Part shown: positions 4,382 through 24,177 of the stretch, piece after piece
How the letters are laid out: each line of letters opens with the position of its first letter
Position numbering within the stretch: the first letter of the stretch is position 1
Translations under genes and position numbers: made by a program
IMG/VR virus record: IMGVR_UViG_3300014846_000073
Direction: 5' to 3' (one strand)
DNA from: a virus
Taxonomy: Duplodnaviria; Heunggongvirae; Uroviricota; Caudoviricetes
Length of the DNA stretch: 33,013 nucleotides
Notes under the pieces: model-generated
Database searches by the model: none
The model's input: only the letters and a program-made list of their open reading frames with translations
What the model was told of the DNA's origin: nothing

Positions 4382-5053
4382 TTAAAGGGCAAACCTTTCT
4401 ATGGTTCGATACACCTTGTCAAAAATTTGCTCTGAAAGTGAAATGGACCCATTTGTGTTAATTTCTAATGACTCATAACCGGTAACGTCCTTAACATTAA
4501 GTTTAACTTTATCAATTGTAAAATTTGCATTTTTGAAAATGTTTCTTATTTCCATAAGTGCGTCACTTGATGACTCAAGTTCCAGTATGCCGGATGTGTG
4601 TTTGCTAAACGTTAAGTCTTTTAATTTTGCCTTGTGCACTTGTATTTTTTCAAAGTGCGGGGTCAGGAAATAAATGAAGTCCTCAATTTTGATGTTGAGA
4701 TTTGACACATTAAAATCAGAATGTGTTGATTTAATTATGTTTGATATGAAGTTCTTAATGCTTCTGGGAGGCGACTCAATGATTAAGATGAAGTTTTTAC
4801 CTTTTGTTGTGTAAAGCCAAAAGTTAAATTGAATATATTTTAGCTGTGTATATTGAGTCTCGTTTCCATATGGATCAACGATTATCTCGTTGACCTCTAC
4901 TTTCTCGATGTATCGAGATGATATTGCATTTTCTTCATATGAGTTGATACTAAATCCCCAGCCTTTATCACTATCAAAAGGAGTGTTAATGATAGACTGA
5001 TATAAACTATCAAGTCCAGCAGGGAAGTTGGCAGTAAACCATTTTGTTTTCAT
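4382..5053 (-). CDS. hypothetical protein, third gene of AT-rich accessory operon (no recognisable domain)
   Basis: 223-aa ORF; AAGGAG Shine-Dalgarno 7-8 nt upstream of ATG; AT-rich codon usage unlike the phage backbone. Confidence 0.6.
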   Translation of the reverse strand: MKTKWFTANFPAGLDSLYQSIINTPFDSDKGWGFSINSYEENAISSRYIEKVEVNEIIVDPYGNETQYTQLKYIQFNFWLYTTKGKNFILIIESPPRSIKNFISNIIKSTHSDFNVSNLNIKIEDFIYFLTPHFEKIQVHKAKLKDLTFSKHTSGILELESSSDALMEIRNIFKNANFTIDKVKLNVKDVTGYESLEINTNGSISLSEQIFDKVYRTIERFAL

Positions 5054-5064
5054 AACAACTCCTT

Positions 5065-6177
5065 TTATTTATCAGTAACAACCTCAATTGTGTTGGAGGC
5101 GATAATACTGTTTGAAATTTCGCGAGCGGTTTTTTCAAGTGCTAATAATAGCAGTTTTTCCTTCTCTTTATCTACATTTTGACGATTTGCATATTCGTTT
5201 ATATTTTTGTACTTATAAACACCGCGAACGATATACGAGAATAACTTGCAATTATCTGGGTCGACAAATTGAGCCTCGAATTCATATTTGTCCGAGTCTT
5301 TATAAGTGTCAACAACAGAACTCCAAATGATTTTGGTAATATAAAATCCTTTTCCTAACAACTCCTTAAACTCGAGAGAGTCAAGAACGCTGCGCCCTTT
5401 TAGTGAAGCTTTGGAGATATGATATCCTGTGTCAATAATTGTATCGTCATCATCAGAATCATCTTCATTTTCGTTAGACTTATTTGACTCAAGAATTGGA
5501 TGCGTAACGTATACATCCGATACGTCAATGCATTTGTAGTTAGGTATGCTTGAGATTAGTTGCTCAAAAAATTTGCTTCTTTCCGCTGGTGATTTAACAG
5601 TTTCGAGCGAAATCTCATCAAGACTGGCTGGATCCTCATTGTTGTCTTCTTTGATCTTCTCCACGAGGCGCTCGTTGAATTCCCTTGCTTTAGCATTTTG
5701 AGGGAAACGGGTGATAAATTCACCGCTTTCATTCATTTCAACTTGTATTTTGGCTTCACGTGATGAGGATTGGCGAAACTCGCTCATTTTGAAATCTAGT
5801 TTCACATATTTTATTGATACTTCAAAACCATTCTCGGTGTAATTTATATTAGTTATATCGCCTTCTTTTTGAAGATCTTCACAAATAGATTTAATAGTAT
5901 TTTCCATACTATTTTTATCTATATTTGTATTAATAATGTTAATTGATACTTTTTCTCTCCGCCCAACAGAACCGAGTATGTTTGAAAGAAATTCAAAATC
6001 AGAATAGCCATGATAGTATCTGGAAAAATCCAAAGCCAATGTTTTTCGTTTAGTCTCTTTGGATATAATCATTCCTCTTTTAAAAAAGAGACTTTTCATA
6101 TCTTCATGAGTGACTTTAGTTTGATTCAATGCGTCAAACATTGCCTTATCATTTACACTATATAATCCAATTTTCAT
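5065..6177 (-). CDS. hypothetical protein with acidic patch (ENEDDSDDDD), second gene of accessory operon
   Basis: ORF-track frame 5065..6192 starts at a TTG; the ATG at 6177..6175 overlaps the stop of the upstream gene (ATGA coupling), giving 370 aa. Confidence 0.6.
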   Translation of the reverse strand: MKIGLYSVNDKAMFDALNQTKVTHEDMKSLFFKRGMIISKETKRKTLALDFSRYYHGYSDFEFLSNILGSVGRREKVSINIINTNIDKNSMENTIKSICEDLQKEGDITNINYTENGFEVSIKYVKLDFKMSEFRQSSSREAKIQVEMNESGEFITRFPQNAKAREFNERLVEKIKEDNNEDPASLDEISLETVKSPAERSKFFEQLISSIPNYKCIDVSDVYVTHPILESNKSNENEDDSDDDDTIIDTGYHISKASLKGRSVLDSLEFKELLGKGFYITKIIWSSVVDTYKDSDKYEFEAQFVDPDNCKLFSYIVRGVYKYKNINEYANRQNVDKEKEKLLLLALEKTAREISNSIIASNTIEVVTDK

Positions 6178-7238
6178 GCCTGTCGCTCCCAACCAATCTC
6201 TACCGAACTAAAACGAGGCTTTGTAAATTCTACCTGTTGAAAATCAATAGCATCTATTATCGTTTTTTTATGTTCATCGAAACCCCATTCTTGACAATAA
6301 CTATCCTTCGCACGCATAAAAATACTGCGAACATCTTTATGTATGTTAGGGTTAACTATTCTAATTCTTATATTTTCATTGCCATCCAGTAATTGATATT
6401 TAGATAGTGTGTCCAGAATGTAAATAAACTCTAGCTCGTTTTTTCCTTCGCCATTGTAATAAATAATGTAACCATGTTTAAATGTGGTTTCCCATTGTGA
6501 TGTTTCTTCATTGCAATGTCTGACGTCATTATGTTTTATAATAAGGAATGGGCCTGTCAATAATTCTACAGTTGCTGGAAGTTCTTCGGGCGAACCGCTT
6601 ACTTTATGTAGTGAAAGGTCTGGGTAAAAGAATTGATATTTTTTACCGAGTGGAAACTCTCTTTTGTGGCTTAGTTGTGATAAATCGCAGATTATTGACT
6701 GCAGGTAGTTTATAGTTCTTGGTTCAATAATGTGTATTTTTTGACCGGCCCTTACCGGTATATTGTCAAGATTGATACCTCTTTTCTTCTTATCAGTTTC
6801 AGTATTGTGAGACTGATAGAATACATCATAAAAAGATTGGTCAAAGTCTCCGTCATGGTTGTATACAAAGAGCATGCCTCTGACTTCTGACGCACCACTT
6901 TTATAAGAATAACGCTCCTTCCATTCTTTACAACCTTGAGCACAGTCAATAGAATTAGCCAGCGATACTAAAGCATTGCGCATTTTAGTTGCTGTAATTG
7001 AGCCTTTAATATAGCTTTTTAAATCAGTATTTAAAAAAATGGTTCTATTCAAATAGGGATCTTTATAAGAAAATACAACATCAGTTGGATGTGTTCCGGC
7101 TAGTGTTTTATGTTGATCTTTTTTCATGCATGGAAAGTTTTCATTGGTTGGACCAACGAGTTCCCACTTAAACCATTTGAATAGGTCTGAAGATATTTTT
7201 TCTGCCATTGCTGAAATATTTTGAGTTTCACCTGACAT
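6174..7238 (-). CDS. hypothetical protein, first gene of accessory operon (no recognisable domain)
   Basis: 354-aa ORF with ATG at 7238..7236 preceded by an AGGT ribosome-binding site; AT-rich. Confidence 0.6.
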   Translation of the reverse strand: MSGETQNISAMAEKISSDLFKWFKWELVGPTNENFPCMKKDQHKTLAGTHPTDVVFSYKDPYLNRTIFLNTDLKSYIKGSITATKMRNALVSLANSIDCAQGCKEWKERYSYKSGASEVRGMLFVYNHDGDFDQSFYDVFYQSHNTETDKKKRGINLDNIPVRAGQKIHIIEPRTINYLQSIICDLSQLSHKREFPLGKKYQFFYPDLSLHKVSGSPEELPATVELLTGPFLIIKHNDVRHCNEETSQWETTFKHGYIIYYNGEGKNELEFIYILDTLSKYQLLDGNENIRIRIVNPNIHKDVRSIFMRAKDSYCQEWGFDEHKKTIIDAIDFQQVEFTKPRFSSVEIGWERQA

Positions 7239-16845: not shown

Positions 16846-16875
16846 TTTTATCCAGGCAGAGGCTGATGCGCAATT

Positions 16876-16910
16876 AAACATTGAGCGGCCATGCTGGTCG
16901 CTCAATGTTT
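16876..16910. terminator. bidirectional hairpin terminator between S and the convergent membrane-protein gene
   Basis: Perfect 12-bp inverted repeat AAACATTGAGCG / CGCTCAATGTTT with 11-nt loop. Confidence 0.45.
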
Positions 16911-16916
16911 AGAGGT

Positions 16917-17702
16917 TTATGAGTGATTTTTATTTGATGCTTTGTATTCTAAAACCTTCTTATTGGCGTAAAAGAATTTTGTATATGACAGGAATATAAC
17001 CAGACCTGAAGTGAAATAGACGAGGGATAGTATTAATAATGCTTTTTTGTGACTGTTATTATCTTTAATCTCCTGGCTTAACCATTCGGAGTCCTCCTCG
17101 TTTAGCTGTAAGAGCTTATTGCAGGCGATCTCAGGAAGTGTGTCTTTTATAAATACGTTTTGCAGTTTCTTGCAATCGGCAAGGCTATAAGTTTTATTAA
17201 ATTCAACTGCTTTGTTTTTGAAGGATAAAAGAACTTTGTCACTATAAACATAGTACATCATGTTTTTATATGGTATGCCTATGGCATCCCTTACTATAAC
17301 GGATTGTTTGTTGTGTATGTAACATGCGAGGAGAATGTAAAAAATACTGGTCAGAATTACAATTATTGTTTTAATTATGTGTGGTGGTTTTGTTATGTCA
17401 CCCCAGATGCGAGTAAGGAAAAAATACGATGTTTTTAGTTTTCCATCAATCAGTCCCTGCTGTATCATTCTCACATTTTCAATGCCTGATACATTGATTC
17501 CGTTAATTATTTTAAATAGTTGAATGTCGCGCCACTCGCGGTCAAGTCTTTTTAATTTTTTGTCTGAATATCCAAAATTGAAATAATGTGCAATAAGCCT
17601 CATAAGGTTACTTTTACCAAAGCTAAAAAATGCTAATACTGCAAAGCTACAAAGGAAAAAAACGATTAGCCCCCACACATTAGTCACATTATAGCTGACC
17701 AT
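16917..17702 (-). CDS. AT-rich accessory membrane protein (three predicted transmembrane helices), inserted between S and V
   Basis: 261-aa minus-strand ORF with hydrophobic stretches VWGLIVFFLCSFAVLAFFSF, IIKTIIVILTSIFYILLACYI and ALLILSLVYFTSGLVIFLSY; composition and orientation differ from the flanking late genes. Confidence 0.6.
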   Translation of the reverse strand: MVSYNVTNVWGLIVFFLCSFAVLAFFSFGKSNLMRLIAHYFNFGYSDKKLKRLDREWRDIQLFKIINGINVSGIENVRMIQQGLIDGKLKTSYFFLTRIWGDITKPPHIIKTIIVILTSIFYILLACYIHNKQSVIVRDAIGIPYKNMMYYVYSDKVLLSFKNKAVEFNKTYSLADCKKLQNVFIKDTLPEIACNKLLQLNEEDSEWLSQEIKDNNSHKKALLILSLVYFTSGLVIFLSYTKFFYANKKVLEYKASNKNHS

Positions 17703-17785
17703 TACGCTCTCCTTGAATGTTGTCTGGTAGTTCTACAAATGAATCCAGATAGCATAACTTTTATATATTGTGCAATCTCACATGC

Positions 17786-23223: not shown

Positions 23224-24177
23224 GTGAAATATTTTTATGACAAACCGGAAAACGATAACGTAAAAGAGAGAAAAACAATTGAGAGCCTGACCCGTCTCAA
23301 ACCTGAGTGGGAAAATACTCTCGATATGATGAAGTTAATACGCAATTGTGAAAAGCTAGCAACTGAAGGTATTTTAATGGAATTATCTTCAGGACATACT
23401 CTTTTGGACCGTTGCTATTTCGCACCGAATTTCAATGAATCAGATGCGAAATATGGAAAGTATGATTTTATAGCTGATGGATTTGAGTCAATCATAGACC
23501 GCCTTAGTCCTTCCGTTTTACCTGTTGTTGTTGAAAAAAGTGATGGTTCACATGATCTTGGTACTAGTTTTATTGTTGGGAATAACCACACGATATTTAC
23601 AGCCAGACATGTTATTGAAGACATGAAGAGTATCAGGATACTTAGAGCTGGTGGTGAGGCTTTACCAATACATAAAATCTTTGTATCTAACGATGAACGT
23701 ATTGATATCGCTTTAGTTTTCACAACCATTCCGAATGAAGATAATATTCAACCACTTAAGGTCTCAACCAAAGCCTCGGTACTGGATGAAATTTTATCAA
23801 TAGGATTTCCACCCATTCCAGGATTTGATGCATTAAAGTTATATGACGTTTCGCATATAAATTCGTTTGTCCGACTGTCAAAGGGGCGAATTGTTGGTTC
23901 TGGTCACTCTTACTTAGATTCACAAGACTTTTTATTATTCAATGCTAGGGTTAAGGGGGGGAATAGCGGTGGCCCTATAATTAACAAATACGGCTTTGTT
24001 ATTGGTATGCTTGTACAAATACCAATATCATCTGAGGACAGTTCAAAGATTGATAACCTTGGATATGGTATAGCTGTAACAGGAAAAAGCCTGCTGGATG
24101 CTATTACATTTACAGAAAATGGCCGCGAATTAACACTCACCGACCGAGGAAATGGAGAATATTCAACTCTAGCATAA
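23224..24177 (+). CDS. accessory protein with C-terminal trypsin-like (S1 family) serine-protease domain and an N-terminal domain of about 110 aa with no recognisable motif
   Basis: Catalytic-triad context in correct order: FTARHVIED (His), ERIDIALVF (Asp), KGGNSGGPI (Ser, GDSGGP-like). Start is uncertain: the frame opens at GTG 23224 with a weak ribosome-binding site, and the first in-frame ATG is at 23326. Confidence 0.7.
   Translation: MKYFYDKPENDNVKERKTIESLTRLKPEWENTLDMMKLIRNCEKLATEGILMELSSGHTLLDRCYFAPNFNESDAKYGKYDFIADGFESIIDRLSPSVLPVVVEKSDGSHDLGTSFIVGNNHTIFTARHVIEDMKSIRILRAGGEALPIHKIFVSNDERIDIALVFTTIPNEDNIQPLKVSTKASVLDEILSIGFPPIPGFDALKLYDVSHINSFVRLSKGRIVGSGHSYLDSQDFLLFNARVKGGNSGGPIINKYGFVIGMLVQIPISSEDSSKIDNLGYGIAVTGKSLLDAITFTENGRELTLTDRGNGEYSTLA

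What the first reader, a model, noticed from the sequence alone, without database searches (positions are those of the whole stretch)
16917..17702. Membrane-protein moron inserted between tail completion gene S and baseplate gene V
A 261-aa minus-strand ORF with three predicted transmembrane helices and very low GC (about 28% in a sampled line) sits between two plus-strand late genes. It is bracketed by a bidirectional hairpin on one side and a short divergent promoter region (17703..17785) on the other. This is the position where P2 carries a small non-essential ORF, so it behaves as an independently transcribed cargo gene. Membrane proteins at such sites in prophages are frequently superinfection-exclusion or abortive-infection factors.
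Basis: partly seen in the sequence, partly recalled or inferred. Interest (0 to 1): 0.6.

Follow-up and report, generated by a model that had tools for sequence, protein, structure and literature searches.

The report
Phage P2 orf30 membrane gene
The flagged gene is orf30 of the classic E. coli phage P2, a long-known, dispensable, AT-rich accessory gene for a three-pass inner-membrane protein whose function has never been determined, so the sighting is real but not new.

Summary
The ORF is real: 16917-17702, minus strand, 261 aa, three hydrophobic segments, 33.7% GC against about 51% for the window. It is phage P2 orf30 itself (98.5% aa identity to AAD03281, 100% to phage P2_AC1), annotated "nonessential". 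It lies in the S-V interval, one of three recognised variable regions of P2-like phages. Among 5426 complete E. coli genomes the S-V slot is empty in 1024 and holds orf30 in 464. Three other AT-rich single genes occupy it in 77, 18 and 14 genomes. No Pfam, PADLOC, NCBIfam, PDB or fold match gives a function; only PHROG 2407, "unknown function", matches.

New here:
- Orf30 belongs to a small Enterobacterales-only family (44 representatives among 1.84 billion).
- Homologs of 24-39% identity sit in the same slot, antisense, in Enterobacter and Serratia P2-like prophages, and always at about 33% GC.
- The gene survives in decayed prophages, including E. coli B.
- Charge bias and an exactly conserved cysteine pair indicate N-out, cytoplasmic loop 1, disulfide-bonded periplasmic loop 2, C-in.
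- The loops are under purifying selection.

A prophage-expressed, envelope-acting exclusion factor is the best guess (about 0.4) but remains inference.

The parts
16917..17702 (-). orf30 CDS (261 aa plus stop), the P2 Orf30 / PHROG 2407 family
   Evidence: ORF list. 98.5% aa identity to P2 Orf30 AAD03281 and 100% to P2_AC1. PHROG 2407 E 3.6e-148.
17619..17678 (-). TM1 (aa 9-28), signal-anchor-like, preceded by an 8-aa uncharged N-terminus predicted to be periplasmic
   Evidence: Hydropathy. No K/R in the N-terminus of any of 25 family members. Evolves fast, dN/dS about 1.2.
17376..17618 (-). Loop 1 (aa 29-109), predicted cytoplasmic helical domain and the most conserved part of the family (motif D-x-QLF(K/R)-x3-G(I/V)NV, G68 and G87 invariant)
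   Evidence: Alignment A2. Mean net charge +5. dN/dS 0.35. AF2 helices.
17313..17375 (-). TM2 (aa 110-130)
   Evidence: Hydropathy. AF2 helix 109-134.
17043..17312 (-). Loop 2 (aa 131-220), predicted periplasmic domain: beta-meander plus helices, with a conserved Cys pair (C177, C194)
16980..17042 (-). TM3 (aa 221-241)
   Evidence: Hydropathy.
16920..16979 (-). C-terminal basic tail (aa 242-261), predicted cytoplasmic
   Evidence: 5 K/R against 1 acidic residue; family mean net charge +2; K254 nearly invariant.
16874..16912 (.). Perfect hairpin between the S stop and the orf30 stop; the P2-annotated O-operon terminator, and a possible 3' end for orf30 mRNA
   Evidence: Folding. P2 annotation. 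94-100% conserved among orf30-bearing phages.
17709..17714 (-). Shine-Dalgarno AAGGAG, 6 nt upstream of the orf30 ATG
   Evidence: Read directly from the sequence.
17703..17785 (+). PV late promoter region (Ogr/activator site at 17717-17744 by identity to P2); part of the cassette, and any orf30 promoter must overlap it or the start of V
   Evidence: P2 annotation mapped onto a 100% identical sequence. No sigma-70 consensus on the minus strand.
16846..17785 (.). The whole S-V cassette: everything between the S stop and the V start differs from the 66-bp spacer of 'empty' P2-like phages
   Evidence: Junction comparison with L002-L005.

Best explanation
The feature is orf30 of phage P2 or a P2_AC1-like phage; this identity is essentially certain. 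It is a dispensable, AT-rich accessory gene that occupies the S-V slot antisense to the late operons.

It encodes a three-pass inner-membrane protein with this inferred topology: N-terminus in the periplasm; an ~80-aa conserved helical loop in the cytoplasm; an ~85-90-aa beta/alpha loop in the periplasm, stapled by a conserved disulfide; and a basic C-tail in the cytoplasm.

The inferred mechanism is as follows. Because the gene is uncoupled from Ogr-dependent late transcription, it is made in the lysogen. There it acts at the cell envelope for the benefit of prophage and host, most probably by interfering with genome entry of other phages or with another envelope step of their infection (superinfection-exclusion-like). 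The periplasmic domain would be the contact or sensing surface, the conserved cytoplasmic loop the effector or partner-binding part, and the TM helices mere anchors. The 0.4 confidence refers to this functional reading.
For: Identity: (98.5-100% aa; P2 annotation 'orf30, nonessential') and PHROG 2407.

Accessory status:
- GC 0.337 against 0.515.
- The slot is empty in 1024 E. coli genomes, holds orf30 in 464, and holds other single AT-rich genes in 77, 18 and 14.
- One alternative cargo is a RelA/SpoT-domain protein that matches PADLOC candidate PDC-S33.
- In the same window, the other two AT-rich hotspots carry defence-like cargo: Hp1-3 and a trypsin-like protease.

A real, selected protein:
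- 461 of 464 copies are full length.
- dN/dS is 0.24-0.35 in both soluble loops.
- There is a full-length family of 44 representatives.

Topology: charge distribution, and exactly two Cys in loop 2 in all 25 members.

Host or prophage benefit rather than virion function:
- The gene is intact in the head-gene-deleted P2 remnant of E. coli B.
- In Serratia, homologs persist beside prophage remnants or alone at the same chromosomal locus.

Independent expression: Serratia homologs carry a good own promoter, TTATCA-17-TAT(C/T)AT.

Literature: orf30 is listed among the horizontally acquired variable loci of P2-like phages (PMC3091744, PMC2771037).
Against: - There is no sequence or fold similarity to any known exclusion or defence protein.
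- No consensus sigma-70 promoter lies upstream of orf30 in this window, and at 33% GC the gene may be H-NS-silenced.
- No exclusion phenotype for orf30 was found in the searchable literature, whereas old, tin and fun were all found through phenotypes.
- The slot has low cargo diversity and orf30 dominates it (about 81% of occupied slots). Its divergence also tracks phage divergence. This looks more like a long-resident phage gene than fast-swapping defence cargo.
- The most conserved part is cytoplasmic, which simple entry blockers do not need.
Confidence: 0.4

Rival explanations
1. Abortive-infection-type membrane effector. Orf30 sits inert in the inner membrane. On sensing an infection cue, through its periplasmic or cytoplasmic domain, it oligomerises and collapses the membrane potential, killing the cell before the invader matures.
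For: The N-out/C-in three-TM layout is the same as that of class I holins (established knowledge), with added sensor-like loops. It is a single-gene cargo in a phage hotspot. The conserved cytoplasmic loop suggests more than passive blocking. The extreme, persistent AT-richness is typical of tightly silenced, potentially toxic genes.
Against: No PADLOC or Pfam match. The TM helices are the least conserved parts (dN/dS about 0.7-1.9; lowest column conservation), which is unexpected for a pore-forming surface. No partner or antitoxin gene is conserved next to it.
Confidence: 0.15
2. Lysogenic conversion unrelated to phages. Orf30 is an envelope protein that changes host physiology, for example immunity to a colicin, T6SS or CDI toxin, envelope-stress signalling, or niche fitness.
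For: It is retained as an orphan chromosomal gene in Serratia and Enterobacter, outside intact prophages. The architecture of a periplasmic domain between two TMs plus a cytoplasmic domain resembles minimal transmembrane sensors. The family is confined to Enterobacterales.
Against: There is no similarity to known immunity or signalling families. The gene is strongly and repeatedly linked to the S-V slot of P2-like phages across three genera.
Confidence: 0.2
3. An accessory function in P2's own life cycle, such as modulating injection, lysis timing, adsorption of progeny to lysing cells, or interplay with satellite P4. It would be non-essential in the laboratory but vertically inherited with the tail module.
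For: Divergence of the homologs tracks divergence of the neighbouring S, V and R proteins: Enterobacter 39% with S 49% and V 84%; Serratia 24% with S 41% and V 64%. The gene keeps a fixed position and orientation across genera. The cassette carries its own conserved PV promoter.
Against: About two thirds of E. coli P2-like prophages lack it, with otherwise about 97% identical flanks. It is antisense to all late operons. It is kept in prophage remnants that can no longer make virions. P2 annotates it as nonessential.
Confidence: 0.15
4. A functionless passenger: a decaying or selfish insertion that is merely tolerated.
For: No function has been assigned in about 30 years. The overall dN/dS (0.33-0.6) is much higher than for S and V.
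Against: 461 of 464 E. coli copies are full length. The loops are under purifying selection. Architecture, motifs and the Cys pair are conserved down to about 20% identity. The gene is retained after prophage decay.
Confidence: 0.05

Closest known systems
Bacteriophage P2 Orf30 (AAD03281; GenBank AF063097 9439-10224; PHROG 2407)
   Same: It is the same gene: 98.5% aa identity, with the same position, orientation, terminator hairpin and PV promoter context.
   Different: Only four amino-acid differences from the reference. It is identical to the P2_AC1 allele.
P2 lysogenic-conversion / exclusion genes old, tin and fun(Z)
   Same: All are AT-rich, non-essential cargo in the variable regions of P2-like phages and are swapped among near-identical phages (PMC3091744, PMC9122126). 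The corresponding slots in this window hold defence-like genes.
   Different: old, tin and fun have demonstrated exclusion phenotypes and, from established knowledge, are soluble proteins. Orf30 is a membrane protein with no phenotype found, and its slot shows far less cargo diversity.
Inner-membrane superinfection-exclusion proteins (T4 Imm, P22 SieA, HK97 gp15)
   Same: They are prophage- or phage-encoded small inner-membrane proteins, dispensable for growth. This resemblance rests on established knowledge only.
   Different: There is no detectable sequence or fold similarity. Orf30 is larger, with two conserved soluble domains on opposite sides of the membrane. No phenotype has been tested.
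Morons in the sense of Hendrix and colleagues
   Same: It deviates in base composition, is present or absent between otherwise collinear phages, has a terminator hairpin at its 3' end, and is transcriptionally uncoupled from its neighbours by orientation.
   Different: Its own promoter is not demonstrable here. The family appears to be a long-term resident of the slot rather than a recent arrival.

Membership tests
P2 Orf30 family (PHROG 2407) | Full-length sequence similarity to P2 Orf30 | tested here: met
   PHROG 2407 E 3.6e-148 over 1-261 of 261. tblastn gives 98.5% identity to AF063097 orf30.
P2 Orf30 family (PHROG 2407) | Location between tail-completion gene S and baseplate gene V, antisense to the late genes | tested here: met
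   The same arrangement is seen for homologs of 24-39% identity in Enterobacter and Serratia.
Moron (independently transcribed phage cargo gene) | Base composition different from the surrounding genome | tested here: met
   GC 0.337 against 0.515. Homologs are at 0.32-0.35 in hosts and phages of 0.53-0.58.
Moron (independently transcribed phage cargo gene) | Present or absent among otherwise collinear relatives | tested here: met
   1024 E. coli genomes have an empty slot and 464 have orf30, with flanks about 97% identical.
Moron (independently transcribed phage cargo gene) | Own promoter and terminator | tested here: inconclusive
   A hairpin is present 5 nt past the stop but without a U-tract on the orf30 strand. 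No sigma-70 consensus lies upstream. Serratia homologs do have a good one.
Known anti-phage defence systems (PADLOC-DB v2) | Match to a defence-protein model | tested here: not met
   0 families even at E <= 10.
Superinfection-exclusion proteins (Imm / SieA / gp15 type) | Sequence or structural homology to a characterised Sie protein | tested here: not met
Superinfection-exclusion proteins (Imm / SieA / gp15 type) | Inner-membrane localisation | tested here: inconclusive
   There are three hydrophobic helices and a consistent positive-inside pattern in 25 homologs. This is prediction only.
Superinfection-exclusion proteins (Imm / SieA / gp15 type) | Expression from the prophage and block of DNA entry by superinfecting phage | not testable with these tools
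   This needs RNA or protein data from lysogens, and plating-efficiency, adsorption and DNA-entry assays.
Virion or lysis components of P2-like phages | Homology to structural or lysis proteins, and conservation in all P2-like phages | tested here: not met
   No Pfam or PHROG structural or lysis match. Absent from about two thirds of E. coli P2-like prophages.

The most novel reading that the evidence does not exclude
Orf30 founds an uncharacterised single-gene, envelope-spanning anti-phage (or anti-P2-competitor) system. A disulfide-bonded periplasmic domain detects an incoming phage component, and the highly conserved cytoplasmic loop transmits or executes the block. The gene has ridden in the S-V slot of P2-like phages since before Escherichia, Enterobacter and Serratia phage lineages split, and it is kept by the host after the prophage decays.
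Probability: 0.25. Interest if true: 0.6.

Novelty: already known. Interest (0 to 1): 0.3.

Why it matters
P2 is one of the best-studied temperate phages, and its other AT-rich cargo genes (old, tin, fun) were founding examples of prophage-encoded phage exclusion. orf30 is the one left without a function. It is carried by about 8.5% of complete E. coli genomes, including the laboratory B lineage. The analysis here makes it directly testable: a defined topology, a conserved Cys pair and cytoplasmic motif to mutate, natural presence/absence pairs, and a naturally orf30-positive laboratory strain. The payoff would be either one more envelope-level exclusion mechanism or a non-defence conversion function. 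As a sighting in this window, however, it re-identifies a known gene.

Tried and rejected
- Pfam, NCBIfam and PADLOC scans gave nothing usable. The only NCBIfam line (RP671a, E 0.018, far below its cut-off) is a low-complexity TM/tail match and was dismissed.
- A profile search against PDB sequences gave only a chance TM match to NdhD.
- The sigma-70 scan found no upstream promoter. The one minus-strand hit is internal to the ORF, and the count is within shuffle expectation (5 against 3.6 +/- 1.9), so it was dismissed.
- A lipoprotein reading was considered because of 'FFLCS' in TM1. It was rejected because that Cys is not conserved among alleles.
- I considered calling the S88 cargo gene CapRel. 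It was not adopted: it has a RelA/SpoT domain and a PADLOC PDC-S33 match, but its best solved relatives are RelQ/RelP-type synthetases.
- Literature searches for an orf30 phenotype or for accession WP_000490543 found none. Recent P2 hotspot surveys do not name orf30.
- The full family alignment was too divergent for the search for related loci; a closer subset was used instead.

Full report
**1. The observation**

The window contains an ATG-initiated ORF at 16917-17702 on the minus strand, 261 aa. It lies between gpS (PF05069, 16393-16845) and gpV (PF04717/PF18715, 17786-18421), both on the plus strand. Its GC content is 0.337 against 0.515 for the rest of the window. Sliding windows fall from about 0.57 to 0.33 and recover at the V start. 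Kyte-Doolittle analysis gives three hydrophobic segments, at aa 9-28, 110-130 and 221-241.

The hairpin between the S stop and the orf30 stop is real. Its 18-bp main stem spans 16874-16912, with dG -32.5 kcal/mol and z -4.2 (z -5.6 on the other strand). On the orf30 strand it is not followed by a U-tract.

The 83-bp interval 17703-17785 carries a strong Shine-Dalgarno for orf30 (AAGGAG, 17709-17714). No consensus sigma-70 promoter lies on the minus strand there or in the first 120 bp of V.

**2. What it is**

The 2-kb S-V region is 98.8% identical to bacteriophage P2 (AF063097) and 99.7% identical to phage P2_AC1. The protein is 98.5% identical to P2 Orf30 and 100% identical to the P2_AC1 allele. 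The P2 record annotates orf30 as 'nonessential'. It annotates the hairpin as the putative rho-independent terminator of the O operon. It annotates the interval upstream of V as the activator-binding site and start of the PV late operon. That interval is 100% identical in the window.

The literature describes orf30 as a 786-bp ORF of unknown function inserted between S and V in P2. It is absent from the close relatives WPhi and L-413C and replaced by other ORFs in PhiCTX, R18C and Burkholderia phages. The orf30 locus is counted, with the TO and Z regions, among the three loci where P2-like phages carry horizontally acquired genes (PMC2771037, PMC3091744, PMC6823313, PMC13366799). The finding is therefore a correct sighting of a known gene whose function is still open.

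**3. Variability of the slot**

Counts below are out of 5426 complete E. coli genomes.

| State of the S-V slot | Genomes |
|---|---|
| P2-like S-V region present | 1574 |
| Empty junction (66-bp spacer) | 1024 |
| orf30 (461 at >=80% coverage; all chromosomal; essentially always in this slot) | 464 |
| 741-bp plus-strand ORF with weak HNH-like similarity | 77 |
| 744-bp minus-strand ORF | 18 |
| 1080-bp minus-strand RelA/SpoT-domain gene matching PADLOC candidate PDC-S33 | 14 |

All cargos have 0.31-0.36 GC.

Junction comparison shows that the exchanged unit runs exactly from the S stop to the V start. Each cassette therefore brings its own terminator and its own PV promoter.

orf30 accounts for about 81% of occupied slots. 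This slot is much less diverse than the old/tin hotspot.

In this same window the other two AT-rich islands hold defence-like cargo. One is a three-gene Hp1/Hp2/Hp3 set at 4382-7238. The other is a trypsin-like peptidase at 23224-24177, with similarity to the protease domains of PADLOC's RT-Protease, LmuA and HamA models.

**4. The protein family**

A word-indexed search found only close E. coli alleles plus one Enterobacter protein at 39% identity. An exhaustive profile search of 1.84 billion representatives found 44 clusters, most of them full-length at 250-270 aa. Named members are all 'hypothetical protein', from Enterobacter, Pectobacterium, Yersinia, Serratia, Cronobacter and Gibbsiella. 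The family is thus confined to Enterobacterales.

The 25-member alignment keeps the three-TM architecture. It shows a conserved motif, D-x-QLF(K/R)-x3-G(I/V)NV...DA..I, in loop 1, and invariant G68, G87, C194 and I212.

Across the 25 members:
- The N-terminus has no K/R.
- Loop 1 has mean net charge +5.
- Loop 2 has net charge about 0 and exactly two cysteines in every member.
- The C-tail has net charge +2.

This is the signature of an N-out / loop-1-in / loop-2-out / C-in inner-membrane protein with a periplasmic disulfide. That topology is inference; no reporter data exist.

**5. Evolutionary behaviour**

Among eight phage alleles, orf30 has dN/dS of 0.26-0.61, against 0.00-0.63 for S (mostly 0.03-0.15) and 0.06-0.20 for V. 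Its dN is about tenfold higher. The two soluble loops are clearly constrained (0.35 and 0.24), whereas the TM segments change freely (about 0.7-1.9, mostly hydrophobic swaps). The flanking terminator and PV promoter are 94-100% conserved.

Homologs of 39% identity (Enterobacter) and 24% identity (Serratia) sit in the same S-V slot, again antisense. Their divergence ranks with that of the neighbouring virion genes: S 49% and V 84% for Enterobacter; S 41%, V 64% and R 60% for Serratia. Every homolog has 0.32-0.35 GC whatever the host or phage GC. Together this suggests a long-resident, fast-evolving occupant of the slot, not a recent arrival.

The gene also outlives its phage. It is intact in the head-gene-deleted P2 remnant of E. 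coli B. It is present in a heavily decayed Serratia prophage. It stands alone or next to a GpR fragment at a Serratia chromosomal locus where P2-like prophages integrate. It is also found as an isolated islet in Enterobacter chromosomes.

The Serratia copies have a good promoter of their own, TTATCA-17-TAT(C/T)AT.

**6. Mechanism**

Shown:
- The identity of the gene.
- Its accessory, dispensable status.
- That it is a selected protein-coding gene.
- Its fixed slot and orientation.
- Its retention after prophage decay.

Inferred:
- The topology and the disulfide.
- Expression in the lysogen.
- Action at the envelope.

The most likely function is a prophage-expressed envelope factor that interferes with other phages in a Sie-like way (about 0.4). 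This rests on the membrane-spanning two-domain design, the precedent of P2's other AT-rich cargo, the defence-like alternative cargo at this slot, and host retention.

Several points count against it. There is no homology to anything known and no recognisable promoter in E. coli P2. No phenotype for orf30 turned up in the searchable literature, although the gene was sequenced about 30 years ago. The pattern of low-diversity, vertical-looking inheritance also fits an accessory role in P2's own cycle (0.15). Other rivals are an Abi-type membrane effector (0.15), a non-phage lysogenic conversion (0.2) and a functionless passenger (0.05).

**7. Novelty and score**

The feature is already known: P2 orf30, in a known variable region. 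Added here are the family's extent and taxonomic limits, its conserved slot across genera, its persistent AT-richness, the topology and disulfide model, the selection pattern, slot-occupancy numbers, and its presence in E. coli B. These sharpen an old open question but do not answer it. Interest is 0.3.

Noticed in passing
window 4382-7238 (minus strand; ORFs 4382-5053, 5065-6192, 6174-7238): An AT-rich island (GC about 0.33) at the old/tin (TO) hotspot carries three genes matching PADLOC Hp3, Hp2 and Hp1 (E 6e-8, 4e-37, 2e-63). It is probably the three-gene 'AC1 locus' that Rousset et al. 2022 showed to act against lambda, LF82_P8 and P2 (PMC9122126).
   Followed up: partly
window 23224-24177 (+): At the Z/fun position, a 317-aa AT-rich ORF carries a trypsin-like peptidase domain (PF13365, 2e-17). 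It is similar to the protease domains of PADLOC's RT-Protease_XI, LmuA and HamA models, making it a candidate single-gene defence cargo.
   Followed up: partly
L006 8915-9736 (-) and L010 9085-9879 (-): In Enterobacter and Serratia P2-like prophages the S-V slot holds a second AT-rich gene next to the orf30 homolog. It encodes 264-273 aa with two N-terminal TM helices, on the late-gene strand. The two copies are homologous to each other (27% identity, E 1e-27) and have no Pfam or PADLOC match. It is absent from the window.
   Followed up: partly
L003 727-1806 (E. coli S88), L004 860-1603 (NCTC9040), L005 664-1404 (GPEC1352): Alternative S-V cargo genes occur in E. coli P2-like prophages: a 359-aa RelA/SpoT-domain protein (PADLOC PDC-S33; 14 genomes), a 247-aa orphan (18 genomes), and a 246-aa protein with weak HNH-like similarity (77 genomes). 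All have 0.31-0.36 GC, and each cassette has its own version of the PV promoter region.
   Followed up: partly
L023 (E. coli B-DolR, NZ_CP117044.1 2101089-2120806): The defective P2-like prophage of E. coli B has lost the region from the portal gene to the S gene but keeps an intact orf30 (WP_000490543.1). Its TO hotspot holds an 'ABC-three component system' plus an AAA ATPase. B-lineage laboratory strains are therefore natural orf30 carriers.
   Followed up: partly
L007 and L008, 7968-8759 (Enterobacter sp. ECC-219 and E. nematophilus chromosomes): A 35%-identical orf30 homolog sits as an isolated 33-35% GC islet between an ECF-sigma/DsbD cluster and an MCP/LacI/GH32 cluster, with no phage genes within 8 kb.
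   Followed up: no
window 17374-17401 (minus strand, inside orf30): The best sigma-70-like match in the region (GTGACA-16-CATAAT, 10 of 12) lies inside orf30, just upstream of TM2. It is probably a chance match in AT-rich DNA (5 sites found against 3.6 +/- 1.9 expected).
   Followed up: no
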